DNA from: Escherichia coli
Lineage (GTDB): Bacteria; Pseudomonadota; Gammaproteobacteria; Enterobacterales; Enterobacteriaceae
DNA: 64,000 nucleotides
Assembly (NCBI RefSeq): GCF_003018255.1
Contig: NZ_CP027440.1
Direction: 5' to 3' (one strand)
Each line of letters begins with the position of its first letter. The stretch's first letter is position 1. The translations under genes and the position numbers were made by a program. Of this stretch, positions 1 through 37,611 are shown one piece after another. The notes beneath the pieces were generated by a model. That model saw nothing but the letters and a program-made list of their open reading frames with translations. It made no database searches and had not been told where the DNA came from.

Positions 1-800
1 TAACCGTCCCCATCGGCATGTCTTTACGTGAAGTCCTGGCGCTGGCGGGCGGCGCAACAGTAGATGCGCCTGGTTTTATCAATGGCGGGCCGATGATGGG
101 AAGTTTGATCACATCGCTCGACACCCCCGTCAGCAAAACCACTGGCGGCTTGCTGGTTTTACCCAACTCTCATTCACTGATCCAACTTCGAATGCAGAAT
201 GACCGCAGCGTACTTACCGTCGCGAAAACTGTTTGTGAGCAATGCCGCTTGTGTACCGATCTCTGCCCACGTCATTTAGTCGGTCACGAACTGGCCCCCC
301 ATTTATTAGTACGTGCGGTTAACTACCAACAGCTCGCTACGCCACAACTGTTACTGACGGCGCTCACCTGTTCGGAGTGCAACGTCTGCGCCAGCGTCGC
401 CTGTCCGGTAGGAATTTCACCAATGCGCATAAACCGCCTGCTTAAGCAGGAATTACGCGCACAAAATCTCCGCTACGAAGGTGCCTTAAATCCTGCTGAT
501 CCCATGGCAAATTATCGACTGATTCCCGTAAAACGGCTGGTAACCAGACTGGGCCTAATCCCGTGGTATCAGGATGCGCCATTGTCTGAACAGGTGCCTC
601 AGACCGAAAAAGTGACGTTATTGTTACGCCAGCACATCGGTGCCAGCGCAATTGCGTGTGTACAAAAAGGCGATCGCGTCGTTCATGGGCAATGTGTAGG
701 TCAAATTCCACACGGCACATTAGGTGCCCCGATTCATGCCAGTATTGATGGCATGGTCAGCGATGTGACAGAAAACGCAATTACGCTTGTGAGAGGTTAA
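1..800 (+). CDS. pduS: PduS-like cobalamin reductase, C-terminal part (gene runs off the 5' window edge)
   Basis: ORF 18..800 is open to the window edge; two ferredoxin-type cysteine clusters ([25 protein letters not shown]) typical of RnfC/PduS; followed directly by BMC shell genes. Family assignment from memory. Confidence 0.65.
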
Positions 801-802
801 CC

Positions 803-1357
803 ATGTCGAAAGCGGTAGGTATTTTAGAACTTAGCAGTATCGCGAAAGGGATGGAAACCGGCGACGCCATGCTGAAAAGCGCCAACGTTGAGTTACTGGT
901 CAGCAAAACGCTATGCCCCGGAAAATTTCTGCTGATGCTCGGTGGCGATGTGGGCGCGGTGCAACAGGCCATCAACAGCGGTGCTTCCGTTGCTGGTGAA
1001 ATGCTGGTCGACAGTCTTGTCCTGCCGAATATTCATCCCAGTCTCCTTTCTGCAATCAGCGGACTGAACCATGTTGAGCAGCACCGGGCTGTCGGCGTAG
1101 TCGAAACCTGGAGTGTCGCTGCCTGCATTGACGCTGCCGATTGTGCTGTCAAAGCTGCGAATGTCATTCTCGTTCGCGTACATATGGCTTTTGGCATTGG
1201 CGGAAAATGCTACATGGTGGTTGCTGGCGATATTTCAGATGTTAATAACGCGGTCTCTGTCGCCAGCGAGCGTGCGGGAGAAAAAGGTTTGTTGGTCTAT
1301 CGGTCGGTGATTGCCCGTCCACATGAAGCCATGTGGCGTCAGATGGTGGAGGGATAA
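803..1357 (+). CDS. pduT: Bacterial microcompartment shell protein, tandem-BMC type (PduT-like)
   Basis: 184 aa ORF with two BMC-like repeats; position between pduS-like and pduU-like genes; stop overlaps next start (TAATG). Confidence 0.7.
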
Positions 1358-1707
1358 TGACAACTCAGCACACAACTGAACGGATGATTCAGGAATATGT
1401 CCCTGGTAAGCAGGTCACGCTGGCACATGTCATCGCCAATCCAGGGAAGGATCTGTTTAAGAAATTGGGTTTACCAGACACCGTTTCTGCTATTGGCATT
1501 CTGACGATTACCCCCAGCGAAGCATCTATCATCGCATGCGATATCGCCACAAAATCAGGCGCTGTAGAGATCGGTTTTCTTGATCGTTTTACCGGTGCCG
1601 TAGTGCTGACTGGTGATGTTTCTGCTATTGAATATGCACTTAGCCAGGTTACCCGTACGCTGGGTGAAATGATGCGCTTTACCGCCTGCCCCATTACGCG
1701 GACCTGA
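1357..1707 (+). CDS. pduU: Microcompartment shell protein PduU/EutS family
   Basis: Translation from the internal ATG ([24 protein letters not shown]...) closely resembles remembered PduU; start chosen at the ATG overlapping the pduT stop. Confidence 0.75.
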
Positions 1708-1711
1708 CGTT

Positions 1712-2155
1712 ATGCAACGTATGATGCTTATCGGCCCCAGCCAGTGCGGAAAAACGTCACTCACGCAATGTCTGCGTGGCGAAAATATCCATTATCAGAA
1801 AACGCAGGCAATCGTCTGGTCCCCGACCACCATTGATACACCAGGCGAATACCTCGAAAACCGCAGCCTTTACAGTGCATTGTTGGTCAGTGCCTGCGAA
1901 GCAGACATTATCGCACTGGTACTTAATGCGGACGCACCGTGGTCACCTTTTTCGCCAGGCTTTACCTCGTCAATGAATCGCCCGGTCATTGGAGTAGTAA
2001 CCAAAGCAGATTTAGCCAGTATGGAACAAATATCTTTGGTGAAATGTTGGTTACGGGAAGCTGGAGCGCACAACGTGTTAGTAACCAGTGCGGTTAATAA
2101 CAATGGAGTTACAGAACTTTTTGCCTTGCTGCATACAGAAGAAGGCTGTCGCTAA
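1712..2155 (+). CDS. pduV: PduV/EutP-family small GTPase of microcompartment operons
   Basis: 147 aa ORF with P-loop (GPSQCGKTS) and EutP/PduV-like length and sequence; last gene before a convergent terminator. Confidence 0.7.
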
Positions 2156-2215
2156 TTTCGATAGGTTCTCAGATGAGAATGATGACGGTGATACACAGAT
2201 AAGAATCAATGAGCA

Positions 2216-2240
2216 ATGAGGGTTGCCGGGCAACCCTCAT
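2216..2240. terminator. Inverted-repeat hairpin between convergent pduV and yeeX
   Basis: Seen in sequence: atgagggttgcc ggg caaccctcat perfect palindrome in the 100-bp gap between two convergent stops. Confidence 0.4.
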
Positions 2241-2255
2241 TGAATAAAACAGGAA

Positions 2256-2585
2256 TTACTTCGCTTCGCCGTTTTTCATTTCGCCCATAGCTTTCAGCTT
2301 TTTGGAGATATCGCGGCGTTCTTTGGAGAGCTCGGCATTTTTGATGATGTAATCGTCAACGCGATCTTCATAGTCACCTTTCATGCTGGCGATGATGCCC
2401 TGGATTGCTTCAACGCTCATCCCTGGCTTGATGTAATCGCTCAGGTTGTCCAGCAGCAGGACGCGCTTCTGGTTGTCACGGATCTTTTTCTCAACGTCCT
2501 GAATTTCACGTTGCAGTTTGTTCTTACGACGGAACAGACGAACAAATTCCAGTACGTCCTGGAATGAAGGCTTGGTAGTTTCCAT
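2256..2585 (-). CDS. yeeX: UPF0265/DUF496 protein YeeX
   Basis: ORF 2256..2651; start placed at internal [14 protein letters not shown] to give the remembered ~109 aa YeeX. Confidence 0.85.
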
Positions 2586-2756
2586 TTTTATACCCCTGAT
2601 AATGTGAGAGTCGGATTCGTTTAAGCAACCGCTATTCGTTAGGGCCAACATTACTCATAGCTGCCGCAGATGACAATGCTTTTATCCCTTTTCACTATCA
2701 TACCCTTTATCCTTGCTGAATCGAAGCAGCAGCAAGATGATTCTGAAGTTCAGGAA

Positions 2757-3815
2757 TTATTTGCGCAAGGCCCGGCAAATCAGATTCGATAGCAACTCAA
2801 GCTGATGTGCCGTTTCCATGTTCAGCCACACATAACCATAGATTGGTGTTTCCACAACCTTCAGGTCATGGTGGTTATCGAGCAACTGACGCAGCTCTTC
2901 CACAGCATCGTTCAATTTTTCCGTATTGGCAAAAACCGGCTGCGGATTACCTTCGTACAGCGCATGAACAAGGCTCAGCAGTATTTGCTGCATCATGTGC
3001 TGGGTATCACGAAGTTTTTGCGCGTTCAATAACACGAAATGGCTGGGGCGCGTGGCCCAGTATGCATTGATTTGCAACTCCAGCATACAAACCAGATTGC
3101 GATTAATGGTCTGGATACCTTCATATATCGATTTGGGAATACGGGTTTCTTTGCTGGCGGGCGCAATCAGCCCACGCATTTTCACGGCATCGGTCAGGAG
3201 TTTTTGTAGATGGCTTTCCAGACGTGGGCGTTCGAGTAAGTTCGGTGAGAATGCAGATTGATAGACCCGATTATACTCGGTCAGACTTTTCGCCAGTTGA
3301 ATGCGCCAGTGGATGAACGCCCGTTGTGGCCAGATACCGGTAAACAACATTGCCAGTAAAGAGCCGAGGATCACATCGCCGCTTCGCCATAACGCCGTAT
3401 CAATTTCACCTGTCGGGGAACCCACAACAATTGCCAGCGTCACCCCAATCAATAATCCTTGATACGGTTTCTTGCCCAGCGCCAGCCAACCGCAAAGAAA
3501 CATCGCCGCCGCGCACCAGACTAACATCAGCGGTAACGAAATTAACTCCAGTTGCAGAGCGATAAGACCTAAAATCGACCCCAACACCGTACCGCCAATA
3601 CGTTCGAAGGCACGAGGGACAACGTTCCCCCAGAACGAGATTGGCCCCATAATCACCACCATGGTGACCAGCGGCCAGGTGCTTTCCGGGATAGTAAACA
3701 GGCGGATAATGAGAAAAGTGAGCAGGAATGCCAGCGCGACCCGAGTACCATGCACAATGCGATAATGGCGGTATACCCGGATTTCAAACGGGCTTAATGA
3801 CTTATCGGCACGCAC
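2757..3815 (-). CDS. yeeA: Inner membrane protein YeeA (fusaric-acid-resistance-like family)
   Basis: 352 aa hydrophobic ORF in the conserved position between yeeX and sbmC. Confidence 0.8.
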   Translation of the reverse strand: MRADKSLSPFEIRVYRHYRIVHGTRVALAFLLTFLIIRLFTIPESTWPLVTMVVIMGPISFWGNVVPRAFERIGGTVLGSILGLIALQLELISLPLMLVWCAAAMFLCGWLALGKKPYQGLLIGVTLAIVVGSPTGEIDTALWRSGDVILGSLLAMLFTGIWPQRAFIHWRIQLAKSLTEYNRVYQSAFSPNLLERPRLESHLQKLLTDAVKMRGLIAPASKETRIPKSIYEGIQTINRNLVCMLELQINAYWATRPSHFVLLNAQKLRDTQHMMQQILLSLVHALYEGNPQPVFANTEKLNDAVEELRQLLDNHHDLKVVETPIYGYVWLNMETAHQLELLSNLICRALRK

Positions 3816-4012
3816 GCAGAAACTCCGTAATGAAGATTAAAAGCGCTCATAACTCATCTGTCGGCCAGAAGGCGCGCCTCTGAATTATCCGACGGACAAA
3901 CCGGGAACAGTGTAATTTCCCGGCAGGAGCGAAAAAATTGAAAGGCGCATCTTACTCTTTTCGCTTTCAAAAAAAGAGTGGTCTTCGCGTCAACACACCG
4001 CCCTGAGATGAA

Positions 4013-4486
4013 TTAGTGATGTTTTGGCTGCACCGCAACATACATTTCGATATCCCAGTACCCATCTTCCGCGCCATTGTTCAAGTAAACCTCGAAGCAG
4101 GGCTTTGGTAACATTTCATAAGCACTGTCCTGCAAGAGGCTATTAAAGAACTGATACCAGGGTTTAGCAAAATCATCACCGACTACACGAGCCACCGCCA
4201 CCGCATACTGACCACCTGAAATTTCTGTCAGAATGACGCCCTCACTGTTTTCGGGGAGCGTAAAGTTATTCGGTACCGTCACGACGGTGTCGCAGCGTAA
4301 TTTTTCGGCGGGTGTTTCATCTGGATTGTCGTAATAGACAGCAACCCACTCCTTCGGCACAATATTTTTGCTATCTATCCACATCATCAACTGCTCAAAA
4401 CCTTTCTTTACCGTCTGCTCCCACGGGCCAACAAGATGGAAACCTGCAACGGTACGTTTCTCTTCCTGCTTAATCTCGTAGTTCAT
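4013..4486 (-). CDS. sbmC: DNA gyrase inhibitor SbmC (GyrI)
   Basis: 157 aa [27 protein letters not shown]...; matches remembered SbmC; conserved neighbour of dacD. Confidence 0.9.
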
Positions 4487-4502
4487 GACGCCTCCATTAA
4501 CA

Positions 4503-4518
4503 CTGTTTTTATATACAG
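4503..4518. promoter_or_regulatory. Candidate LexA (SOS) box upstream of sbmC
   Basis: Seen in sequence: CTGT-ttttatat-ACAG (CTGT-N8-ACAG) about 17 bp upstream of the sbmC start; sbmC is a known SOS gene (established knowledge). Confidence 0.5.
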
Positions 4519-4604
4519 TATAGTTGCAATATTAAAACCACAAGGAATGAGTGTTGATTATGCGAGCAGACTCGCACTCCTGCCAGTCTGCTGCAAAAGA
4601 AAGG

Positions 4605-5777
4605 TCAGGCCTTATGGTGGAAATAATCACTCAGGCGGGAAAACATGCCGCCTTCCCCGACAGATTCCAGGGTAACCAGCGGCCAGTGCGCCACCTGTTT
4701 ATCACGGTCGTAAAGTTCAATTTCCCCTACCCGCTGATGGGCGCTAATTGGCGCGGTGAGCTCTTTACCATCAAGGGTATATTTGGCTTTGATATGTGGA
4801 ATTTCGGCTTTCGGTAGCACCATCCAGAACTCTTGTTCCGTTCCCAGGTCGATATTTTCTTTATCGCCATACCAGATGCGTTCCGTTCCGACCTTTTTCC
4901 CACGGTGCAAAATTTGCACCGTAGTAAAGTTTTGTTGCCCCCAACGCAGTAATTTTCTTGCCTCTTCCTCACGACCTTTTGCACTGTCAGCCCCCATTAC
5001 CACTGCAATGAGACGACGCTGCCCATCTACAGCCGAAGCAATGAGATTAAACCCGGCACCAGAAGTATGACCCGTTTTCAGGCCGTCAACATTCATGGTT
5101 TTATCCCACAACAACCCGTTACGGTTTTGCTGGGTGATACCGTTCCAGGTGAGGCTTTTCTCACTGTACATATGATAAAACTCGGGCTCGCCGTGGATGA
5201 TAGCGCGAGAAAGCACAGCTAAATCATAAGCCGAGCTATGCTGGCCAGGTGCATCCAGACCATGCACTGTTTCAAAATGCGTATCCTTGAGATGCAGCTT
5301 CTCGGCATAGTTGTTCATCATTGCAACAAACTGCCGTTGCCCACCGGCAATATAGTCAGCCAGTGCAACACAAGCATCATTTCCGGAATCCACAATTAAA
5401 CCACGGCTTAAATCACGTACCGATACGCGATCGCCCTCTTTCAAAAACATCAGTGAAGAACCGACAAACACTGGATTATCTTTCGCCCACGCATCGCGCC
5501 CTACGGTGACAATATCGTCTGGCGTAATTCGATGACTATCGATAGCGCGATCCACGACATAACCCGTCATCAGCTTTGTCAGGCTGGCGGGATTGCGCTG
5601 TTGATGCTCATTACCCGCGGTGAGGATCTGTCCGGTGGTGTAATCCATCAATACCCAGGACCCGGCATGAATCTCTGGAGGCTGAGGTGAAAAAGGAATG
5701 TTTTCCGCCGCAAAACCAGACGATAAGTTAAAAACGAACAAAGAAGCAGCAATAATAAGACGGCGTTTCAACAGCAA
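4605..5777 (-). CDS. dacD: D-alanyl-D-alanine carboxypeptidase DacD (PBP6b)
   Basis: 390 aa ORF with signal peptide and SxxK active-site motif (ASLTKLMT), typical of class C low-molecular-weight PBPs; synteny. Confidence 0.9.
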   Translation of the reverse strand: MLLKRRLIIAASLFVFNLSSGFAAENIPFSPQPPEIHAGSWVLMDYTTGQILTAGNEHQQRNPASLTKLMTGYVVDRAIDSHRITPDDIVTVGRDAWAKDNPVFVGSSLMFLKEGDRVSVRDLSRGLIVDSGNDACVALADYIAGGQRQFVAMMNNYAEKLHLKDTHFETVHGLDAPGQHSSAYDLAVLSRAIIHGEPEFYHMYSEKSLTWNGITQQNRNGLLWDKTMNVDGLKTGHTSGAGFNLIASAVDGQRRLIAVVMGADSAKGREEEARKLLRWGQQNFTTVQILHRGKKVGTERIWYGDKENIDLGTEQEFWMVLPKAEIPHIKAKYTLDGKELTAPISAHQRVGEIELYDRDKQVAHWPLVTLESVGEGGMFSRLSDYFHHKA

Positions 5778-5979
5778 ACCCTCAGGAGTTTCAAATAGCT
5801 GTTCTTTTTACGGAAATACTTATGAACTGGCTGGAATAAAGTGCAAGAAAATGTGACTAACCTCTCATTTTTATCTGACATGATCTGTTGCCACTCGCTG
5901 CCAAATTGTGGCGCTAAAGCTGATTAGCACGGTGATATTTGATACTCTGGCAGACAGCAGAGATAACGGATTTAACCTA

Positions 5980-7407
5980 ATGATGAATGACGGTAAGCAA
6001 CAATCTACCTTTTTGTTTCACGATTACGAAACCTTTGGCACGCACCCCGCGTTAGATCGCCCTGCACAGTTCGCAGCCATTCGCACCGATAGCAAATTCA
6101 ATGTCATCGGCGAACCCGAAGTCTTTTACTGCAAGCCCGCGGATGACTATTTACCCCAGCCTGGAGCAGTATTAATTACCGGTATTACCCCGCAGGAGGC
6201 ACGGGCGAAAGGAGAAAACGAAGCCGCGTTTGCCGCCCGTATTCACTCGCTTTTTACCGTACCGAAGACCTGTATTCTGGGCTACAACAATGTGCGTTTC
6301 GACGACGAAGTCACACGCAACGTTTTTTATCGTAATTTCTACGATCCTTACGCCTGGAGCTGGCAGCATGATAACTCGCGCTGGGATTTACTGGATGTTA
6401 TGCGTGCCTGTTATGCCCTGCGCCCGGAAGGAATAAACTGGCCTGAAAATGATGACGGTCTACCGAGCTTTCGCCTTGAGCATTTAACCAAAGCGAATGG
6501 TATTGAACATAGCAACGCCCACGATGCGATGGCTGATGTGTACGCCACTATTGCGATGGCGAAACTGGTAAAAACGCGTCAGCCACGCCTGTTTGATTAT
6601 CTCTTTACCCATCGTAATAAACACAAACTGATGGCGTTGATTGATGTTCCGCAGATGAAACCCTTGGTTCACGTTTCCGGAATGTTTGGGGCATGGCGCG
6701 GCAATACCAGCTGGGTGGCACCGCTGGCGTGGCATCCTGAAAATCGCAATGCCGTAATTATGGTGGATTTGGCAGGAGACATTTCGCCATTACTGGAGCT
6801 GGATAGCGACACATTGCGCGAGCGTTTATATACCGCAAAAGCCGATCTTGGCGATAACGCCGCCGTTCCGGTTAAGCTGGTGCATATCAATAAATGTCCG
6901 GTACTGGCCCAGGCGAATACGCTACGCCCGGAAGATGCCGACCGACTGGGAATTAATCGTCAGCATTGCCTCGATAACCTAAAAATTCTGCGTGAAAATC
7001 CGCAAGTGCGTGAAAAAGTGGTGGCGATATTCGCGGAAGCCGAACCGTTTACGCCTTCAGATAACGTGGATGCACAGCTTTATAATGGCTTTTTCAGTGA
7101 CGCCGATCGTGCAGCAATGAAAATTGTGCTGGAAACCGAGCCGCGTAATTTACCGGCACTGGATATCACTTTTGTTGATAAACGAATTGAAAAACTGTTG
7201 TTCAATTATCGAGCGCGCAACTTCCCGGGGACGCTGGATTATGCCGAGCAGCAACGCTGGCTGGAGCACCGCCGCCAGGTCTTCACGCCAGAGTTTTTGC
7301 AGGGCTACGCTGATGAATTGCAGATGCTGGCACAACAGTATGCTGATGACAAAGAGAAAGTGGCGCTGTTAAAAGCGCTTTGGCAGTACGCGGAAGAGAT
7401 CGTCTGA
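5980..7407 (+). CDS. sbcB: Exodeoxyribonuclease I
   Basis: ORF 5908..7407; start placed at MMNDGKQQSTFLFHDYETFGTHPALDRPAQFAAIRTD (DEDDh exonuclease signature), giving the remembered ~475 aa. Confidence 0.95.
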   Translation: MMNDGKQQSTFLFHDYETFGTHPALDRPAQFAAIRTDSKFNVIGEPEVFYCKPADDYLPQPGAVLITGITPQEARAKGENEAAFAARIHSLFTVPKTCILGYNNVRFDDEVTRNVFYRNFYDPYAWSWQHDNSRWDLLDVMRACYALRPEGINWPENDDGLPSFRLEHLTKANGIEHSNAHDAMADVYATIAMAKLVKTRQPRLFDYLFTHRNKHKLMALIDVPQMKPLVHVSGMFGAWRGNTSWVAPLAWHPENRNAVIMVDLAGDISPLLELDSDTLRERLYTAKADLGDNAAVPVKLVHINKCPVLAQANTLRPEDADRLGINRQHCLDNLKILRENPQVREKVVAIFAEAEPFTPSDNVDAQLYNGFFSDADRAAMKIVLETEPRNLPALDITFVDKRIEKLLFNYRARNFPGTLDYAEQQRWLEHRRQVFTPEFLQGYADELQMLAQQYADDKEKVALLKALWQYAEEIV

Positions 7408-7410
7408 AAC

Positions 7411-7443
7411 AAAAAAGCCGGAGCGACAAACTCCGGCTTTTTG
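7411..7443. terminator. Bidirectional Rho-independent terminator between convergent sbcB and plaP
   Basis: Seen in sequence: aaaaaa-GCCGGAG-cgacaaa-CTCCGGC-ttttt; A-run before and T-run after a GC-rich stem. Confidence 0.65.
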
Positions 7444-7480
7444 AGATTTACCGGATGATTATGTCATCCGGTTTGTAAGA

Positions 7481-8839
7481 TTACGCTACGTCTTCGTACT
7501 GCGGAACCGGGTTACGGAAACTCTTGGTTACGCAAGCCAGGTAAATCAGACCGATAGCAGCCCAGATCAGACCCAGAACCATTGAGCTTTCTTCCAGGTT
7601 AACCCACAGCGCACCAACGGTCAGCGCACCACACATCGGCAGGAACAGATACTGGAAGTGATCTTTCAGCGTCTTGTTACGCTTCTCACGGATCCAGAAC
7701 TGCGAGATGACCGACAGGTTAACGAAGGTGAACGCCACCAACGCACCAAAGTTAATCAGCGCCGTAGCCATTACCAGGTCGAAGTTGATTGCCAGCAGGG
7801 CAATCGCGCCAACCAGGATGATGTTCATCGCCGGAGTACGCCATTTCGGGTGTACATAACCGAAGAAGCTTTTCGGGAACACGCCGTCACGACCCATTAC
7901 GTACATCAGACGCGCTACGCCTGCGTGCGCCGCCATACCGGACGCCAGTACGGTAATGGTGGAGAAGATCAGCGCGCCAACCTGGAACGCTTTACCCGCA
8001 ACGTACAGCATGATTTCAGGCTGTGACGCATCCGGATCTTTAAAGCGAGAGATATCCGGGAAGTACAGCTGCAGGAAGTAAGTTGCAAAGATGAAGATCA
8101 TGCCGCCGATCAGCGCGGTCAGGAAAATCGCACGCGGGATCACGCGCTCTGCATCTTTGGTTTCTTCCGACAGGTTGCTGATGCCGTCAAAACCGGTAAA
8201 GGAGAAGCACAGGATTGTCGCCCCGGTAATCATCGGGATAACATGCGCATCGCCAGACCAGAACGGACGAGTGCTCGCCAGCGTACCAGCGCCTTCACCT
8301 TCAAATACGCCATAAACAACCATGCCCAGAATCACCGCGATCAGCACTACCTGCAACACGACGATTACAGTGTTGAAGTTCGCTACGGATTTCAGACTAC
8401 GCAGGTTAAAGGCGGTCATAAAGGCCACCAGCGCCACCACAAACATCCACGATGGAATGGAAGGCACCAGAGCTTCAAAATAGATTTTCGCCAGCAGAAT
8501 GTTGATCATCGGCGCGAACAGATAGTCGAGCAGAGAAGACCAACCCACCATAAAGCCGACAGTCGGGCTAATGGATTTCTGGGCGTAAGTGTATGCAGAG
8601 CCAGCAGAAGGATAGCGGCGAACCAGCTTCCCGTAGCTCAGAGCCGTAAACAGGATCGCAATCAATGCGAACGCATAGGCTGTCGGCACATGACCATCCG
8701 TGAGGCCTGAAACGATACCAAAAGTATCAAACAGCGTCATCGGCTGCATATAGGCTAGACCCATCATTACAACCGGAACTAACGTAAGCGTTTTACGCAA
8801 TTCCACGCGAGAGGTGTTTGGAGTAACGTTATGCGACAT
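7481..8839 (-). CDS. plaP: Putrescine importer PlaP (APC superfamily permease, formerly YeeF)
   Basis: ORF 7481..8845, polytopic amino acid/polyamine permease-like; start placed at [16 protein letters not shown]. Confidence 0.9.
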
Positions 8840-9105
8840 GGTCATTCTCCTTTACGGTGATAACCGTCGCGTAAGCAAAAAATTGCCCCATTTTTTTGGA
8901 TTCCTCAGCGACAACAACTGTCGATTTTTAGTAAATATCTATCCGGTACGAAGCCCGGCCTCTTGGTATGAATGATTGGTTTGAAGCAAAAAATAACCGA
9001 CGCTAATTAAACGTCGGTTTTTAGTCATTTTTTGACAGCGGCGCATTGTGCCTAAATGGGGGGGAAATGACAAGAGAATGAGAGGCTTGTCATAATAATT
9101 TTTCT

Positions 9106-10035
9106 TTAAATGGCTGATTTTCCGTCATCAGATTTTGCATAAACACCGGCGATCGCACTATTTGCTAAAATTTCATCTCGCCACCAGCCGCTGGCAAGCC
9201 CTGCGGTCTGTTCGTTCCAGCCAATCCAGACGGGTTCAAAGAGAGTTTGGGCGACTACTTTCTTCTCGATTAACGCGCCACTATCGAGAAAACGTTGCGC
9301 CAGATAACGGGGTAAATAGCCGCAGCCAAGGCCGCTAATTTGCAGCTCCAGTTTGGTTTTAAAATCGAAAACGGTAATGGCTTCTTGTTCGTCGAGAAGT
9401 TGTGAGGCCGTAGAAGCGCCTGCCTGCGCAGTGTCCCCCACCACAATCGCCCGATATCGTTTAATGATACGACGGTTTAACGGTTCTTCTTCCTGGGCTA
9501 ACGGATGATGAGGCGCGACCGCAAAGACTTGTTCAAGATCGCCCAACCGCGAGAAACCAAACTCACTGGAAGATGGTGGCTCATGCATCGCGCCAACAAT
9601 AATATCCGCTCGCCCCTGAGTCAGTGCATCCCAGGAACCACCGAGTACGCCATTGATAAACTTCAGGCGCGTCACGCTATGATGTTGATAAAAAGCCTCA
9701 ATGAGAGGCGCAAGCAGAGAAAAAGGAAACGTGTCGTCCACGCCAATCACCAGCTCATTTTCCCAGCCTTCATGCAGTTTGATAGCCTGCTTTTCCAGTT
9801 CTCGCACGGTATGCAGAACTTCCCGCCCTTTCTCTAATAACATTTTTCCGGTGCGGGTGAATTTAGCGCGGTGACCGCTACGATCAAGCAATTGAATATT
9901 AAGGTCGCTTTCCAGCTTGTGAACGGTATAACTCAGAGCGGACGGCGTCTTGTAGAGTTTAGCCGACGCCGCCGCAAAACTGCCTTCTTTTTCTAAGGCA
10001 TCGAGGATCATCAACACATCCAGCAGTGGTTTCAT
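9106..10035 (-). CDS. yeeY: LysR-family transcriptional regulator YeeY
   Basis: 309 aa ORF with N-terminal HTH (MKPLLDVLMILDALEKEGSFAAASAKLYKTPSALSYTVHKLE) and LysR substrate-binding domain; synteny. Confidence 0.85.
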   Translation of the reverse strand: MKPLLDVLMILDALEKEGSFAAASAKLYKTPSALSYTVHKLESDLNIQLLDRSGHRAKFTRTGKMLLEKGREVLHTVRELEKQAIKLHEGWENELVIGVDDTFPFSLLAPLIEAFYQHHSVTRLKFINGVLGGSWDALTQGRADIIVGAMHEPPSSSEFGFSRLGDLEQVFAVAPHHPLAQEEEPLNRRIIKRYRAIVVGDTAQAGASTASQLLDEQEAITVFDFKTKLELQISGLGCGYLPRYLAQRFLDSGALIEKKVVAQTLFEPVWIGWNEQTAGLASGWWRDEILANSAIAGVYAKSDDGKSAI

Positions 10036-22599: not shown

Positions 22600-22706
22600 T
22601 GTTTACTCCTGTCAGGTGGAAAACTAAATACTTTTAGAGTTAGCGTTATATTAACTGATATCATTTGATGATAGTAGATAATATTATGATAAATACTGAC
22701 TCAGTA

Positions 22707-23723
22707 TCACTCAGAATATCCATTCGGATTTTTATTTTGCCATCTCCAAGCATCAGTAATCATATCCTCAAGTGTACGCTTTGCTTCCCAATGAAGCTCT
22801 TTAATAGCTAAATCTGGTTTTGACCAACATTCAGCGATATCTCCAAGCCTTCGCTCAGAAATAACATAAGGTATTTTTATTCCGGTTATTTTTTGAAAGG
22901 CATCAATAATCTCTTTTACTGAATATCCTTTACCTGTGCCTAGGTTATAATAACGTAACCCACCGTATATATTTTGTTTTTTTAGCGCTGCAATATGACC
23001 TTCCGCTAAGTCCATAACATGTATGTAATCTCTAACTCCGGTGCCATCAACCGTAGGATAATCCCCCCCATATATGGTCAACTTCTCAAGTTTCCCAACA
23101 GCAACCTGTGTTAAATAGGGAAAAAGGTTGCTTGGTACACCATTAGGATCCTCACCAATTAAACCAGAATAATGTGCGCCTACAGGATTAAAATATCTCA
23201 AGCAAGTTGCATTAAATTTAAATTCATAATTGGTTATATCTTCAAGCATTCTTTCAACAATATATTTTGTCGTCCCATATGGATTTGTTGTTCCTCCTGT
23301 ACTGCAATTTTCGTGCACCGGAATAGCTGTAGGATTGCCATATACTGTTGCGGATGAACTAAAAATAAAATTGTAAATTTTATTTTTTAACATCGAGTCA
23401 ATTAAATGCAAAGTTCCAATAACATTATTCTCATAATACTGAATGGGTTTTTTAATTGATTCCGAAACAGATTTTAGCGCAGCAAAATGAATAACAGCCT
23501 CGATATCATTATTTGCAAACACAGAATCAATCAAGTCAATGTTGCGTATATCTCCTTCATATATAATTATTTTCTTAGAAGTCAAATACTCCACTCTTTT
23601 TAAAGCAATCTTTGAAGAGTTACTAAAATTATCAATAACAATAACATCATAGTTATGATTTAAAAGTTGCAATACTGTATGTGAACCAATATATCCTGCC
23701 CCACCAGTCACGAGAACAGCCAT
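22707..23723 (-). CDS. gne: UDP-N-acetylglucosamine / UDP-glucose 4-epimerase (GalE/Gne family)
   Basis: 338 aa short-chain dehydrogenase/reductase ORF with GGAGYIGS and YxxxK catalytic motif (YGTTK); last gene of the AT-rich O-antigen cassette next to gnd. Confidence 0.8.
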   Translation of the reverse strand: MAVLVTGGAGYIGSHTVLQLLNHNYDVIVIDNFSNSSKIALKRVEYLTSKKIIIYEGDIRNIDLIDSVFANNDIEAVIHFAALKSVSESIKKPIQYYENNVIGTLHLIDSMLKNKIYNFIFSSSATVYGNPTAIPVHENCSTGGTTNPYGTTKYIVERMLEDITNYEFKFNATCLRYFNPVGAHYSGLIGEDPNGVPSNLFPYLTQVAVGKLEKLTIYGGDYPTVDGTGVRDYIHVMDLAEGHIAALKKQNIYGGLRYYNLGTGKGYSVKEIIDAFQKITGIKIPYVISERRLGDIAECWSKPDLAIKELHWEAKRTLEDMITDAWRWQNKNPNGYSE

Positions 23724-23756
23724 ACCCTCTCCTTTAAAAACATTTTTTATAAGAAA

Positions 23757-24734
23757 CTATCTGTTTTTTACTTGATACAAGAAATGATAAACTGGAAAGA
23801 ATTTTTTAATCAACAACAAGCGAAACGCATAATACATACCAAAAGCCTGTTCGCAATTCATTTTCTGCTCTATGTTTTTCGGCAAAACTATTTTATTTTT
23901 TTTACATAAAAGGAATATATAAATCAAAAAATCATTGTATCTTTTCTTAAGATAATACTTGACCAATCTATTCTTTGTTGTTTGTATAATACATCTATAG
24001 GTTTTTAATACTTCCAGATAACCAATTATATTGCGAGAGCTAATTTTACTTGTCATTATTGAGTTTTCCCTTACCCTTCGGTAAAAATAAATCTCATCGG
24101 TACAATAACACAACTTAGAATCTAAAATAATCCTAGGTAAGTACTCTTCATCCTCATGAACTATATTTTTAAAAAATGAATTTCGCATTAATAATTCAGT
24201 TCTAAATACATTAATGCAAACAGATGAAAAGTAAGAATTGGTTGAAAATAATCTTTCTAAAAAAACATCACCAGACTTACAAATTTGAAATTTAGTTCGT
24301 TTATATGAAGGAATTTTACCTGCCAAATTAGAAGGGAGCCCTAATATTGATCCTGAAAATGCTATAATGTCTAACTCTTTATAATTAGTCAATATTTCAT
24401 TAATATCCCTTATAAACATTGGACTCAAAGCATCATCAGAGTCAAAAAAATAGACGTATGGTGTGCTAACTTTTGTCAGACCATAATTCCTAGCACTGCT
24501 TAAACCACCATTTTCTTTAGAAAATATCTTATAATTATCCTTACCCTCTATTCTTTTTTTAAGGAGAGGTATCGAATCATCACTAGAACCATCATCCACG
24601 ATGATAACTGAATGTGGTTGCATAGACTGATTTATAATAGAATCTATAGCCTCAACAATATAATCTTGGACATTGTACACAGGCATAACAATTGATATTA
24701 ATTTGGAAATCTCATTTTCTTTTTGGCAAAGCAT
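23757..24734 (-). CDS. Glycosyltransferase family 2 (O-unit glycosyltransferase)
   Basis: 325 aa ORF; N-terminal GT-A signature (ISIVMPVYN ... IIVDDGSSD); AT-rich codon usage. Confidence 0.75.
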   Translation of the reverse strand: MLCQKENEISKLISIVMPVYNVQDYIVEAIDSIINQSMQPHSVIIVDDGSSDDSIPLLKKRIEGKDNYKIFSKENGGLSSARNYGLTKVSTPYVYFFDSDDALSPMFIRDINEILTNYKELDIIAFSGSILGLPSNLAGKIPSYKRTKFQICKSGDVFLERLFSTNSYFSSVCINVFRTELLMRNSFFKNIVHEDEEYLPRIILDSKLCYCTDEIYFYRRVRENSIMTSKISSRNIIGYLEVLKTYRCIIQTTKNRLVKYYLKKRYNDFLIYIFLLCKKNKIVLPKNIEQKMNCEQAFGMYYAFRLLLIKKFFPVYHFLYQVKNR

Positions 24735-26145
24735 TGTTTAATAATCCCACAATGGTATTTTTATCAATAATAAACATAAGACAAACATAACTCCCTGCAC
24801 CTATAACGATATAATAAATCAAAGATAATAATTCCATATTATTAGATTGAGTTATAAAATTATTTTTAGCAATCAGTATCAAAATTAGCATGCAAACACT
24901 ACAAAACAAAGGTTTACATGTTATACATAAAATGTTTTTTATGTTACCTTGGAGCAATCTCATGACGTAATAAAAGCAGATGTAAAATATTAATACATTC
25001 GCACAAAGATATAACTGGCAGAATATAACGATATTGAAGCATGCCCCAATAACAAATGACATAACTTGAATTATTGCACTCACACAACCAATCCTTGCCA
25101 GCAACTTAACGTTACCTAAAGATAAAAAAACTACTCCTGTAGTGCTCGTGAGTGCTTGGATAATCCCAACAGGTGCCAACCATTTTAAAAGAAGAGCAGC
25201 ATTATCCCAATTTTTACCAAACAGAAAAAAAACTAACTCGTTACTTAACGAAGCGAGCCCAATCATGGCAGGAATTGACAAAACTGCAATGAACTTTAGC
25301 GAGTCTAAATATATTCTTTTTTTTGTTATAATATCTTTTGAATGACTTAGCTTAGGCAATAAAGCTCTATTAAATATATAAGTTATATTTTGAACTGGAA
25401 ATAACATAAGTCTATATGCTAATGCATAATTACCTAAAACATACTGCCCAAAAATTTTTCCAACTATAATATTATCAGCGTTACGTGAGAAATAATTCAC
25501 CATATTAAATGACATTACATTAACACAATAGCCAAATATTAATTTTATATATTTCATCCGCCAAGAAAATTTATATTTTCTTCTATTTTTAAGGCTCAAT
25601 AAAAAAACAACAATAACTGCATACAAAAGGGCCTGTAGAGACACAGCATAAAGTCCAAAGCCCATGGCAATTACTATAAAAACAACAATGATTGAAATCG
25701 ATAATGATATCAACTCTATGAGAGCAGTAATATTGAACTGTTGGTTTCGTTCTAATAAAGCAAAATTAAAAGCAATAAAACTTTGTAAAGGAAATGAAAA
25801 AGAGATGATCAATATTAATAGAAACAACCTTGTGTCATTGTAAAAAAGGGATATTGGATAAGCTAATAATGTCATTACGATAAAAATAACGAGACCGCTT
25901 ATAAAGTTTAATGTGTATGTGGATTTAATAAAATTTTCACTTATTCTTCTCCGTTGAATTAATATTGATGACGTCCCCATATCTCTAAAGAGCATGGCAA
26001 ATGCAGCCACTACGCTTACAATGGAAATCAAACCATAGTCATAAGGCGTTAAATAACGAGCCAGTACAAAGATCAAAACTAATTGGCTCAGAGCTCTTGC
26101 AATTTGAGATAAAGCGACCCATTTTACTCCTGTTATCAAAAGCAT
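24712..26145 (-). CDS. wzx: O-antigen flippase
   Basis: 477 aa polytopic ORF with Wzx-like N-terminus (ALSQIARALSQLVLIFVLARYLTPYDYGLISIVSV); AT-rich. Confidence 0.75.
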   Translation of the reverse strand: MLLITGVKWVALSQIARALSQLVLIFVLARYLTPYDYGLISIVSVVAAFAMLFRDMGTSSILIQRRRISENFIKSTYTLNFISGLVIFIVMTLLAYPISLFYNDTRLFLLILIISFSFPLQSFIAFNFALLERNQQFNITALIELISLSISIIVVFIVIAMGFGLYAVSLQALLYAVIVVFLLSLKNRRKYKFSWRMKYIKLIFGYCVNVMSFNMVNYFSRNADNIIVGKIFGQYVLGNYALAYRLMLFPVQNITYIFNRALLPKLSHSKDIITKKRIYLDSLKFIAVLSIPAMIGLASLSNELVFFLFGKNWDNAALLLKWLAPVGIIQALTSTTGVVFLSLGNVKLLARIGCVSAIIQVMSFVIGACFNIVIFCQLYLCANVLIFYICFYYVMRLLQGNIKNILCITCKPLFCSVCMLILILIAKNNFITQSNNMELLSLIYYIVIGAGSYVCLMFIIDKNTIVGLLNNALPKRK

Positions 26146-26152
26146 TTTATTA

Positions 26153-27100
26153 TTATCTCACTCTTTTTTTAAAATGGTTTTCATAAACTTTTTGCTTCAA
26201 ATATATAATGCCAGGGAACGCTCTTTTGAGTAGCAACTTAGTTGCAAATAATGTCCAGTATTGTTTTTTTGCTATAAAAGAAAATATAATTTTAATTTTT
26301 AAACATCTTAACATCATTAACCTAAACAGGTTATAATTCTTTGTATCATTGTACATTATATTCTTATATTTAAAATAATACTTCCGATATGCCACATAAT
26401 CTTTAATATTCTTGGTTATTCTAACACCTTCATGAGAAATATCCATATAGTAAGTATTAGCGTTTAACCTCCTGGCACTCCCATAAACTTGAATAAGTTT
26501 AGTCCAAACATCTTGATCTTGTAACCGTTTAAAATCAATAGAAAATCCTCCAACTGATAACAAACGCTCTCGCTCAACTAAAATCTGGTTACCAGCTTCA
26601 TTTTCCTTGAGTATACTTTGTAAATCAATGATACATTCTCTTTGAAATCGTGCATGATTATTTGTTCCAGTCACTATTATATAGTTATCGCAGATAAAGG
26701 AAAATTCCTTGTTATAATGATTAACCAGAATCTGTAACCTATCTTCTTTGAAATAATCATCATCATCCAACCCTGTAATGAAGAAACCTTTTGCATGCTT
26801 TAATCCTCTATTTCTAGAAAAATTAGCCCCCATATTTCTTGGGTTTTTCTTATATATAAAATTCTTAATATTTGGTGTTGCTACTTCTTGCAATTCTTTT
26901 ACAATCAAGTCAACTTCATAACTAGAGTTATCATCGACTACGATTAATTCTATTTTTGAATAAGTTTGATTAAATACTGATAATATTGCTCTGCGCAACA
27001 GCAAAGGGCGATTATAAGATGTTATAAGAACGCTTACTAATTTTTCCATTTCTTTTTCAAAACCATCAACAAAGTAATTATAACCAAAGAATAGATCCAC
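26153..27100 (-). CDS. Glycosyltransferase family 2
   Basis: 315 aa ORF; GT-A signature (VSVLITSYNRP ... IVVDDNSS). The true start may be the internal ATG near 27049, reducing the overlap with wzy. Confidence 0.7.
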   Translation of the reverse strand: MDLFFGYNYFVDGFEKEMEKLVSVLITSYNRPLLLRRAILSVFNQTYSKIELIVVDDNSSYEVDLIVKELQEVATPNIKNFIYKKNPRNMGANFSRNRGLKHAKGFFITGLDDDDYFKEDRLQILVNHYNKEFSFICDNYIIVTGTNNHARFQRECIIDLQSILKENEAGNQILVERERLLSVGGFSIDFKRLQDQDVWTKLIQVYGSARRLNANTYYMDISHEGVRITKNIKDYVAYRKYYFKYKNIMYNDTKNYNLFRLMMLRCLKIKIIFSFIAKKQYWTLFATKLLLKRAFPGIIYLKQKVYENHFKKRVR

Positions 27101-37012: not shown

Positions 37013-37595
37013 GCCTGATGCGACGCTAACGCGTCTTATCAGACCTACAAGTCCCGAGCACAGAACCGTAGGCCGGATAAGGCGTTCACGCCGCATCCGG
37101 CATTCAGTGCCTGATGCGACGCTGACGCGTCTTATCAGGCCTACAAGATCCGAGCACAGAACCGTAGGACGGATAAGGCGTTCACGCCGCATCCGGCATT
37201 CAGTGCCTGATGCGACGCTGACGCGTCTTATCAGGCCTACAAGATCCGAGCACAGAACCGTAGGACGGATAAGGCGTTCACGCCGCATCCGGCATTCAGT
37301 GCCTGATGCGACGCTGACGCGTCTTATCAGGCCTACAAGACCCGAGCACAGAGCCGTAGGACGGATAAGGCGTTTTACGCCGCATCCGGCATTCAGTGCC
37401 TGATGCGACGCTGACGCGTCTTATCAGGCCTACAAGATCCGAGCACAGAACCGTAGGCCGGATAAGGCGTTCACGCCGCATCCGGCATTCAGTGCCTGAT
37501 GCGACGCTGGCGCGTCTTATCAGGCCTACAAGATCCAAGCCCAGCCCCCCAGGACGGATAAGGCGTTTTACGCCGCATCCGGCAACCGTTGCCGG
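37013..37595. repeat. Tandem array of about six 96-97 bp BIME units (inverted REP pairs) between wcaK and wzxC
   Basis: Seen in sequence: unit gcctgatgcgacgctgacgcgtcttatcaggcctacaagatccgagcacagaaccgtaggacggataaggcgttcacgccgcatccggcattcagt begins at about 37013, 37109, 37205, 37301, 37398 and 37494 with few substitutions. Confidence 0.85.
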
Positions 37596-37611
37596 AACCG
37601 AAAACAACCAT

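What the first reader, a model, noticed from the sequence alone, without database searches (positions are those of the whole stretch)
7408..7480. yeeD/yeeE (thiosulfate uptake genes) absent between sbcB and plaP
In K-12, as I recall, the yeeE-yeeD pair lies between sbcB and plaP. Here the two genes converge with only about 73 bp between them, occupied by a terminator hairpin and a second small palindrome (ccggatga...tcatccgg). This suggests a clean absence or deletion of that pair in this lineage.
Basis: partly seen in the sequence, partly recalled or inferred. Interest (0 to 1): 0.3.

Follow-up and report, generated by a model that had tools for sequence, protein, structure and literature searches.

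The report
Common tsuBA-less sbcB–plaP junction allele
The thiosulfate-uptake genes yeeD/yeeE (tsuB/tsuA) are indeed missing between sbcB and plaP here, but this is an old, common and already reported gene-content variant found in about a fifth of E. coli genomes, not a deletion specific to this strain.

Summary
sbcB (5980-7407, +) and plaP (7481-8839, -) converge on a 73-bp spacer (7408-7480). The spacer holds an A-run/GC-stem/T-run hairpin and a second 9-bp-arm palindrome.

The "deletion in this lineage" reading is not supported.
- The same spacer occurs in 1210 of 5426 complete E. coli genomes. These include the uropathogenic or reference strains NU14, ATCC 25922 and EC958/ST131.
- tsuBA DNA occurs in 4209 genomes, so the two sets are almost exactly complementary.
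- Escherichia whittamii carries the same spacer with 5 differences, although its sbcB is about 10% diverged. The empty allele is therefore older than E. coli.
- The spacer is not a sub-sequence of the K-12 interval. Only the plaP-proximal terminator corresponds.
- Across 80 Enterobacteriaceae species, tsuBA sits at this exact site in 21. About 45 have direct adjacency and some carry other cargo.

Iguchi et al. 2011 already reported O157 strains lacking yeeD/yeeE. The expected consequence is loss of the TsuAB thiosulfate route, which is redundant with CysPUWA. This is an ordinary finding of low interest.

The parts
5980..7407 (+). sbcB (exodeoxyribonuclease I), 475 aa. The mechanical ORF starts at a GTG at 5908.
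   Evidence: NF008746 at E 6e-245. 99% identical to K-12 SbcB. The coordinates match the sbcB annotation of NZ_CP051001.1, which is 100% identical to the window over 6900-8000.
7408..7480 (.). 73-bp convergent intergenic spacer. This is the 'empty' allele of the tsuBA (yeeDE) presence/absence polymorphism.
   Evidence: Found in 1210 E. coli genomes and in E. whittamii.
7411..7442 (.). Hairpin with the form of a bidirectional intrinsic terminator. It has an A6 run (7411-7416), a GC stem at 7417-7423/7431-7437, a 7-nt loop and a T5 run (7438-7442). It can serve sbcB on the + strand and plaP on the - strand.
   Evidence: Folding on both strands. The same ATAAAAAAACCGGAG-loop-CTCCGGTTTTT element sits next to plaP in nearly all Enterobacteriaceae loci, with or without tsuBA. 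The simple terminator scan did not list it.
7450..7472 (.). Second palindrome, ACCGGATGA-ttatg-TCATCCGGT. It lies just 3' of the plaP stop codon on the - strand. It is probably a 3' stabilising or backup hairpin.
   Evidence: Conserved, with occasional stem mismatches, in E. coli empty-allele variants and in E. whittamii. Its arms resemble the CCGGAT...ATCCGG arms of REP (repetitive extragenic palindrome) elements, but the interior does not.
7481..8839 (-). plaP (yeeF), putrescine/proton symporter, 452 aa.
   Evidence: 100% identical to K-12 PlaP. The coordinates match the plaP annotation of NZ_CP051001.1, which is 100% identical to the window over 6900-8000.
7407..7408 (.). Site where IS200C is inserted in ST131-type genomes that carry the same empty spacer. 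The element is not present in this window.
   Evidence: In about one third of empty-allele genomes the match starts at query base 9, which is window 7408 (21 of 60 evenly spaced rows).

Best explanation
The window carries the tsuBA-less ("empty") allele of an old presence/absence polymorphism at the convergent sbcB/plaP junction.

Structure. In this allele the two genes share one 73-bp spacer. Its first hairpin (A-run, 7-bp GC stem, T-run) has the form of a bidirectional rho-independent terminator, so it can end the sbcB transcript on the + strand and the plaP transcript on the - strand. It is the counterpart of the plaP terminator conserved across Enterobacteriaceae. The second small hairpin lies just after the plaP stop codon and most likely acts as a 3' stabiliser or backup terminator.

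The alternative allele (K-12 and about 78% of E. coli) has a 1.45-kb module between the sbcB stop codon and that same terminator. The module consists of a GC-rich hairpin, tsuB, tsuA and their AT-rich promoter region.

Origin. The empty allele was not made by a deletion in this strain's lineage. It predates the E. coli / E. whittamii split and is passed on vertically and by homologous recombination through the flanking genes. My preferred direction, held at only moderate confidence, is that tsuBA at this site is ancestral in the family and the empty alleles are old losses.

Consequence (inferred). The cell lacks TsuA/TsuB-mediated thiosulfate uptake and depends on the CysPUWA ABC system for thiosulfate. 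It therefore shows no sulfur auxotrophy.
For: Shown by tool results:
- The anatomy and the strength of folding.
- K-12 has tsuB-tsuA at this position.
- 1212 genomes match contiguously across the junction, 1210 carry the spacer itself, and 4209 carry tsuBA DNA. The sum is 5419 of 5426, so the two states are essentially mutually exclusive.
- E. whittamii has the same 73-bp spacer with 5 differences, while its sbcB differs at about 50 sites per 500 bp.
- Several empty-allele haplotypes exist within E. coli, each 3-5 SNPs apart.
- The spacer cannot be aligned to the K-12 interval except at the terminator.
- Divergence between window and K-12 rises next to the indel: 5-6 differences per 100 bp in the last 230 bp of sbcB, against roughly 0-4 (mostly 1-2) per 100 bp further away.
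- A recent decay looks different: strain HH45 retains tsuB and tsuA remnants.

For ancestral tsuBA:
- The pair has the same position and orientation in 21 species of at least 9 genera.
- TsuA distances track SbcB distances (Pearson 0.75). E. coli TsuA is closest to Citrobacter TsuA, as SbcB is to Citrobacter SbcB.
- tsuBA GC content (50.4%) equals that of its flanks.

Function and redundancy: a ΔcysPUWA ΔyeeE strain cannot use thiosulfate, and yeeE-yeeD restores growth (PMC11073785).

Prior report: O157 strains lacking yeeD/yeeE, and an IS200-like insertion between sbcB and yeeF (PMC3158064).
Against: - The direction of the event is unresolved. E. whittamii and B2-type E. coli both carry the empty allele, which would equally fit an empty ancestor of Escherichia.
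- The site repeatedly accepts insertions: IS200C, an IS256-like element, and an EF-G-like/ArsR cargo in Raoultella.
- Terminator function is inferred from sequence and folding only. The simple terminator scan did not list the hairpin.
- The rest of the source genome could not be searched for a second tsuBA copy or for cysPUWA.
Confidence: 0.85

Rival explanations
1. The empty state is ancestral in Escherichia. On this view tsuBA was brought, or brought back, into the non-B2 E. coli lineages by homologous recombination from a related enterobacterium, so the window simply never had the pair.
For: - E. whittamii shares the empty spacer at outgroup-level divergence.
- Strains such as NU14, ATCC 25922 and ST131 carry it. 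That these are phylogroup B2 and branch early is from my own knowledge.
- The site is a recurrent insertion point.
- Transfer between genera does happen at this locus. E. coli CUWW06 carries a Kluyvera-like sbcB-tsuBA-plaP segment next to an integrase, and PlaP identity is bimodal and unrelated to SbcB distance.
- From memory only: Salmonella LT2 has sbcB directly next to yeeF.
Against: - tsuBA occupies the identical slot and orientation in 21 species of at least 9 genera.
- E. coli TsuA is about as far from Citrobacter TsuA (8-10%) as SbcB is from Citrobacter SbcB (7-8%).
- tsuBA shows no compositional anomaly.
- No mobile-element hallmarks flank the module.
Confidence: 0.3
2. One reading: a recent, clean deletion of yeeD-yeeE from a K-12-like ancestor in this particular lineage.
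For: The pair is absent without remnants. The flanking genes are 98-99% identical to K-12.
Against: - The spacer is shared by 1210 genomes and by E. whittamii.
- Its sequence is not contained in the K-12 interval.
- The terminator loop and the distal part differ strongly from K-12: a 7-nt loop against 16 nt, plus an extra palindrome.
- A recently decayed tsuBA copy, in HH45, keeps gene fragments.
Confidence: 0.03
3. An assembly or collapse artefact removed the two genes from the window.
For: None.
Against: The same junction is present in 1210 independently finished genomes and was reported from Sanger-sequenced O157 strains (PMC3158064).
Confidence: 0.01

Closest known systems
E. coli K-12 sbcB-tsuB(yeeD)-tsuA(yeeE)-plaP locus
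   Same: The flanking genes are the same in order and orientation: dacD, sbcB, plaP, yoeI, yeeY, yeeZ, yoeB-yefM, his. They are 98-99% identical at the nucleotide level, and PlaP is 100% identical as protein. The A-run/CCGGAG...CTCCGG/T-run terminator next to plaP is the same element.
   Different: K-12 has 1520 bp between the stop codons, holding a GC-rich hairpin, tsuB, tsuA and a 178-bp AT-rich promoter region. The window has 73 bp, with a shorter terminator loop and an extra palindrome.
O157 strains with 'PV01-185-type rfbE' that lack yeeD and yeeE (Iguchi et al. 2011, PLoS One 6:e23250, PMC3158064)
   Same: The reported gene content is the same: yeeD and yeeE are missing between sbcB and yeeF/plaP, in the flank of the O-antigen/his region. 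The junction of O157:H16 strain 98-3133 is 100% identical to the window over 1.1 kb.
   Different: The window carries an O185-like O-antigen cluster, not O157. It is not the same strain: 98.0-99.3% identity to the best complete genomes.
ST131 / EC958-type junction with IS200C
   Same: The empty spacer is identical from window 7408 onward, and plaP and sbcB are 99.5% identical.
   Different: A 712-bp IS200C is inserted directly after the sbcB stop codon in those genomes. The window has no IS there.
Escherichia whittamii sbcB-plaP spacer (L005)
   Same: It is 73 bp long with both hairpins in the same places, and differs at 5 positions.
   Different: The flanks are diverged at species level, about 10% in sbcB. 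One arm of the second palindrome carries a mismatch.

Membership tests
TsuA/TsuB (YeeE/YeeD) thiosulfate-uptake locus | A YeeE/YedE-family membrane protein gene (tsuA, about 352 aa) between sbcB and plaP | tested here: not met
   No ORF can fit in the 73-bp spacer. tblastn of K-12 TsuA against the whole window gives a best E of 2.6.
TsuA/TsuB (YeeE/YeeD) thiosulfate-uptake locus | A TusA-like sulfurtransferase gene (tsuB, 75 aa) downstream of tsuA | tested here: not met
   tblastn of K-12 TsuB against the window gives a best E of 0.26 over 13 residues.
TsuA/TsuB (YeeE/YeeD) thiosulfate-uptake locus | A copy elsewhere in the same genome | not testable with these tools
   Only 64 kb of the source genome is available. 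Indirect evidence: in 5426 E. coli genomes the empty spacer (1210) and tsuBA DNA (4209) are almost perfectly complementary.
Bidirectional intrinsic (rho-independent) terminator | A GC-rich stem-loop | tested here: met
   A 7-bp GC stem at 7417-7423/7431-7437, extended to 12 bp by A-U pairs. Both strands fold at about -33 kcal/mol for the spacer, z -7.5 and -8.5.
Bidirectional intrinsic (rho-independent) terminator | A U-run directly 3' of the stem on both transcribed strands | tested here: met
   T5 at 7438-7442 on the + strand. A6 at 7411-7416 gives U6 on the - strand.
Bidirectional intrinsic (rho-independent) terminator | Detected by a consensus terminator scan | tested here: not met
   The simple scan of 7300-7600 did not list this hairpin. 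A likely reason is that the A/T runs pair with each other and absorb the tail.
Bidirectional intrinsic (rho-independent) terminator | Transcripts actually end there | not testable with these tools
   This needs Term-seq or 3' RACE.
REP / BIME element (for the second palindrome, 7450-7472) | An imperfect palindrome of about 35 nt with a conserved REP interior, present in many copies per genome | tested here: not met
   Only the outer CCGGAT...ATCCGG arms resemble REPs. The canonical REPs in the window (for example 37073-37100) have a 28-nt form with a GGCGTTCACGCC interior. The 21-nt form occurs once in the window.
Mobile-element excision or insertion scar | Terminal inverted repeats, target-site duplication, or IS or integrase remnants at the junction | tested here: not met
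   Nothing of this kind is visible in the spacer or at the K-12 module boundaries. GC content of tsuBA equals that of the flanks.

The most novel reading that the evidence does not exclude
The sbcB/plaP junction may hold a polymorphism that spans species and even genera. On this reading the tsuBA-containing and empty alleles have both persisted since before the E. coli / E. whittamii split, and both occur within Citrobacter, Kosakonia, Lelliottia and Enterobacter. They would be maintained by selection that alternates with thiosulfate availability, for example in the inflamed versus the healthy gut, and moved between species by recombination through the conserved flanking genes. The bimodal plaP alleles would be a footprint of the same exchange.
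Probability: 0.15. Interest if true: 0.4.

Novelty: already known. Interest (0 to 1): 0.1.

Why it matters
It matters little for this window. The strain is predicted to lack the TsuA/TsuB thiosulfate importer, a route that is redundant with CysPUWA in E. coli (PMC11073785). The variant is common and has been published (PMC3158064).

The useful by-products are practical.
- tsuBA should be treated as an accessory pair in E. coli, absent from about 22% of complete genomes, including ST131 and ATCC 25922.
- The sbcB-plaP spacer is a recurrent insertion and replacement site.
- The patchy distribution at one fixed site across genera could serve as a small test case for how accessory operons are lost and regained by recombination in their flanks.

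Tried and rejected
1. I first assumed the window was O157:H16 strain 98-3133, because the 1.1-kb junction matched at 100%. This was wrong. The window differs elsewhere, carries an O185-like cluster, and matches no complete genome above 98.0-99.3%.
2. The consensus promoter/terminator scan of 7300-7600 found no terminator in the spacer. I rely instead on folding and on conservation across genera.
3. The Rfam scan of 6800-9300 found nothing in the spacer.
It returned no E. coli, Salmonella, E. albertii, E. fergusonii or E. marmotae, so the ancestral state in Escherichia could not be resolved.
5. The divergent 'E. coli' CUWW06 was examined as a possible outgroup. Its region turned out to be a Kluyvera-like import: sbcB is 82% identical to K-12, and its tsuA-plaP spacer is almost identical to that of K. 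georgiana. It was rejected as an outgroup.
6. I looked by eye for microhomology or direct repeats at the module boundaries in K-12 and C. youngae that would predict the observed empty junctions. None fitted.
7. I considered a short duplication (GATGATTATG) as the origin of the second palindrome. The match to the K-12 plaP end is only 10-11 bases, so I treat it as chance.
8. I considered a REP origin for the second palindrome. Only the arms match.

Full report
**Observation.** The window has sbcB on the + strand (annotated start 5980, stop codon TGA at 7405-7407). plaP lies on the - strand (7481-8839, stop codon read as TTA at 7481-7483). The interval 7408-7480 between them is 73 bp. SbcB matches NCBIfam NF008746 at E 6e-245. 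By tblastn, the window proteins are 99% (SbcB) and 100% (PlaP) identical to K-12.

The spacer reads aacAAAAAAGCCGGAGcgacaaaCTCCGGCTTTTTgagatttACCGGATGAttatgTCATCCGGTttgtaaga. Folded as RNA it gives the same two hairpins on both strands: -33.1 and -33.7 kcal/mol, z -7.5 and -8.5, with none of 200 shuffles as stable.

**The K-12 comparison.** In K-12 the order is sbcB, tsuB (yeeD), tsuA (yeeE), plaP, with 1520 bp between the sbcB and plaP stop codons. No TsuA- or TsuB-like coding capacity exists anywhere in the 64-kb window.

**How common the variant is.**
- A 1.1-kb query across the junction matches contiguously in 1212 of 5424 complete E. coli genomes.
- The spacer alone matches 1210 genomes, 996 of them at 99% identity or better.
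- K-12 tsuB-tsuA DNA matches 4209 of 5426 genomes, almost always once and on the chromosome.
- The two sets sum to 5419, so the states are essentially mutually exclusive. About 22% of finished E. coli genomes lack the pair.
- Carriers of the empty spacer include NU14, ATCC 25922/Seattle 1946, PMV-1 and EC958/ST131. They also include bovine and porcine isolates such as ECC-1470.
- In roughly a third of carriers (21 of 60 evenly spaced rows) the match starts at window base 7408. In these genomes a 712-bp IS200C sits directly after the sbcB stop codon.

**Not a deletion from a K-12-like sequence.**
- Alignment of the two alleles shows that homology ends at the sbcB stop codon and resumes at the plaP stop codon.
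- The only corresponding element is the terminator next to plaP. In K-12 it reads ATAAAAAAACCGGAG-ccaaatgttcattcga-CTCCGGTTT. In the window it reads AAAAAAGCCGGAG-cgacaaa-CTCCGGCTTTTT.
- The loop, the distal sequence and the extra palindrome all differ, although the flanking genes are 98-99% identical.
- Divergence between window and K-12 rises next to the indel. It is 5-6 differences per 100 bp in the last 230 bp of sbcB and 4 in the first 100 bp of plaP, against roughly 0-4 (mostly 1-2) per 100 bp further away.
- Strain HH45 shows what a decayed tsuBA locus looks like: a 1073-bp interval that still holds a truncated tsuB and a tsuA fragment. The window has nothing of that kind.

**Age of the empty allele.** Escherichia whittamii (L005) has a 73-bp spacer with both hairpins and only 5 differences from the window. 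Its sbcB differs from the window at about 50 sites per 500 bp. Within E. coli several empty-allele haplotypes exist, each 3-5 substitutions apart. The empty allele is therefore older than E. coli as a species.

**Wider distribution.** A scan of one genome per species with SbcB returned 80 loci. I mapped them with tblastn.
- In 21 species of at least nine genera, tsuB-tsuA lies between sbcB and plaP in the K-12 orientation. These include Citrobacter amalonaticus, C. youngae, Kluyvera, Kosakonia, Superficieibacter, Pseudocitrobacter, Lelliottia, Trabulsiella and Huaxiibacter.
- About 45 species have direct adjacency, with spacers of 58-166 bp.
- Seven species (Raoultella and relatives) hold a different 2.8-3.0-kb cargo. 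In Raoultella terrigena, the one examined, it is an EF-G-like protein plus an ArsR-type regulator.
- Both states occur within single genera: Citrobacter, Kosakonia, Lelliottia and Enterobacter.
- Nearly all loci, full or empty, keep the ATAAAAAAACCGGAG-loop-CTCCGGTTTTT terminator next to plaP.
- Within the C. freundii complex, full (C. youngae) and empty (C. braakii) alleles share the same terminator loop (aacatgt). The change there is therefore independent of the one in Escherichia.

**Direction of the change.**
- In favour of ancestral tsuBA: the slot and orientation are identical across genera. TsuA distances follow SbcB distances (Pearson 0.75), with E. coli closest to Citrobacter for both proteins. 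GC content (50.4%) and GC3 equal those of the flanks.
- In favour of an empty ancestor in Escherichia: E. whittamii and the B2-type strains are empty, and the site clearly accepts insertions. These include IS200C, an IS256-like element abutting the sbcB stop codon in Escherichia sp. MOD1-EC7003, and the Raoultella cargo.
- Exchange between genera at this locus is real. E. coli CUWW06 carries a Kluyvera-like sbcB-tsuBA-plaP segment beside a tyrosine recombinase. PlaP identity to E. coli is bimodal (96-100% or 85-90%) and unrelated to SbcB distance (Pearson 0.12).
- I favour old loss (about 0.55) over gain (about 0.3). The scan did not return E. albertii, E. fergusonii, E. marmotae or Salmonella, so this remains inference.

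**How it works.**
- Shown: two convergent genes share a spacer whose first hairpin has a GC stem flanked by an A-run and a T-run. On either strand it therefore has the form of an intrinsic terminator. This element is conserved across the family.
- Inferred: it terminates both sbcB and plaP. The second hairpin, just 3' of the plaP stop codon, protects the plaP 3' end or backs up sbcB termination (it is followed by TTTGT on the + strand). The simple terminator scan did not list either hairpin, and no Rfam family matches the spacer.
- Consequence: TsuA (YeeE) with TsuB (YeeD) is a thiosulfate uptake route. E. coli lacking both cysPUWA and yeeE cannot grow on thiosulfate, and yeeE-yeeD restores growth (PMC11073785). 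An empty-allele strain should therefore depend on CysPUWA for thiosulfate and show no auxotrophy. cysPUWA lies outside the window and could not be checked.

**Comparison with what is known.** Iguchi et al. 2011 (PMC3158064) sequenced the flanks of O157-antigen clusters. They reported that three strains lacked yeeD and yeeE, and that another had an IS200-like element between sbcB and yeeF. This is the same polymorphism and the same insertion site. The window itself carries an O185-like O-antigen cluster (97.4% identity). It matches no complete E. coli genome above 98.0% (bases 1-24000) or 99.3% (bases 40000-64000).

**Verdict.** The variant is already known and of low interest (0.1). The confidence of 0.85 applies to the description of the empty allele as old, common and not lineage-specific; the direction of the change is held at about 0.55. 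The least ordinary reading still open is a long-maintained polymorphism spanning species at a recombination and insertion hotspot (probability about 0.15).

Noticed in passing
L006-L083 (plaP next to sbcB in 80 species loci); window 7481-8839: PlaP identity to the E. coli protein is bimodal across Enterobacteriaceae, at 96-100% or 85-90%. Both classes occur inside single genera: E. cloacae 97% against E. asburiae 88%, and C. werkmanii 97% against C. gillenii 88%. PlaP distance is uncorrelated with SbcB distance (Pearson 0.12). This suggests two deep plaP allele classes exchanged between genera.
   Followed up: partly
L089 (E. coli CUWW06, NZ_CP182139.1 2898353-2907871): A genome labelled E. 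coli carries an sbcB-tsuB-tsuA-plaP-yeeZ-his segment that is only 74-87% identical to K-12. Its tsuA-plaP spacer is almost identical to that of Kluyvera georgiana. A tyrosine recombinase sits where dacD should be. This looks like a chromosomal replacement from another genus.
   Followed up: partly
L090 (E. coli HH45, NZ_CP116411.1), locus 3959-5031: A decayed tsuBA locus. The interval is 1073 bp instead of 1520 bp, with a truncated tsuB (177 bp) and a 111-bp tsuA fragment. Only 5 of the 4209 tsuBA-positive genomes cover less than 80% of the pair.
   Followed up: partly
L031 7472-10129 (Raoultella terrigena); similar-sized inserts in L027, L032, L053, L055, L066, L068: The same sbcB/plaP slot holds a different cargo in Raoultella and relatives. 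In L031 it is a 700-aa EF-G-like GTPase and a 105-aa ArsR-type regulator.
   Followed up: partly
L004 7426-7709 (Escherichia sp. MOD1-EC7003); L003 2009-2720 (ST131): Two unrelated IS elements abut the sbcB stop codon: an IS256-like transposase end in MOD1-EC7003 and IS200C in ST131. The first bases after the stop codon seem to be a favoured insertion point.
   Followed up: partly
L001 3825-3950 and the tsuA upstream regions of 20 other loci: A motif upstream of tsuA is conserved across genera: CCAATAACCAAA, about 20 nt, then GGTTATTA. This is an inverted AATAACC/GGTTATT pair. It is a likely regulator binding site for the tsuAB promoter.
   Followed up: no
window 8986-9060 (-): Rfam match to the enterobacterial sRNA STnc240 (69.3 bits, gathering score 55, E 3e-10). 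It lies in the plaP/yoeI leader region between yeeY and plaP.
   Followed up: no
window 18-2155 (+): ORFs that look like the tail of a bacterial-microcompartment operon. The last is a full-length 147-aa EutP/PduV-like GTPase. In this stretch K-12, ST131 and O157:H16 strain 98-3133 have CP4-44-type genes (yeeT, cbeA, cbtA, yeeW), followed by a 60-aa EutP/PduV-family ORF. Window 1-1970 does not align to K-12 or ST131 but does align to E. whittamii.
   Followed up: partly
window about 37000-37600: An array of REP/BIME copies with a period of about 96 bp. It probably lies in the wcaK-wzxC intergenic region. Six CATCCGGC and six GCCTGATG sites alternate regularly.
   Followed up: no
window about 22600-31000: The O-antigen cluster is O185-like but only about 97% identical to the six E. 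coli genomes that carry it. The adjacent his-wzzB-ugd-gnd region is unusually diverged from K-12 and ST131, at 2.5-17% per kb. This is typical of recombination flanks around the O-antigen locus.
   Followed up: partly
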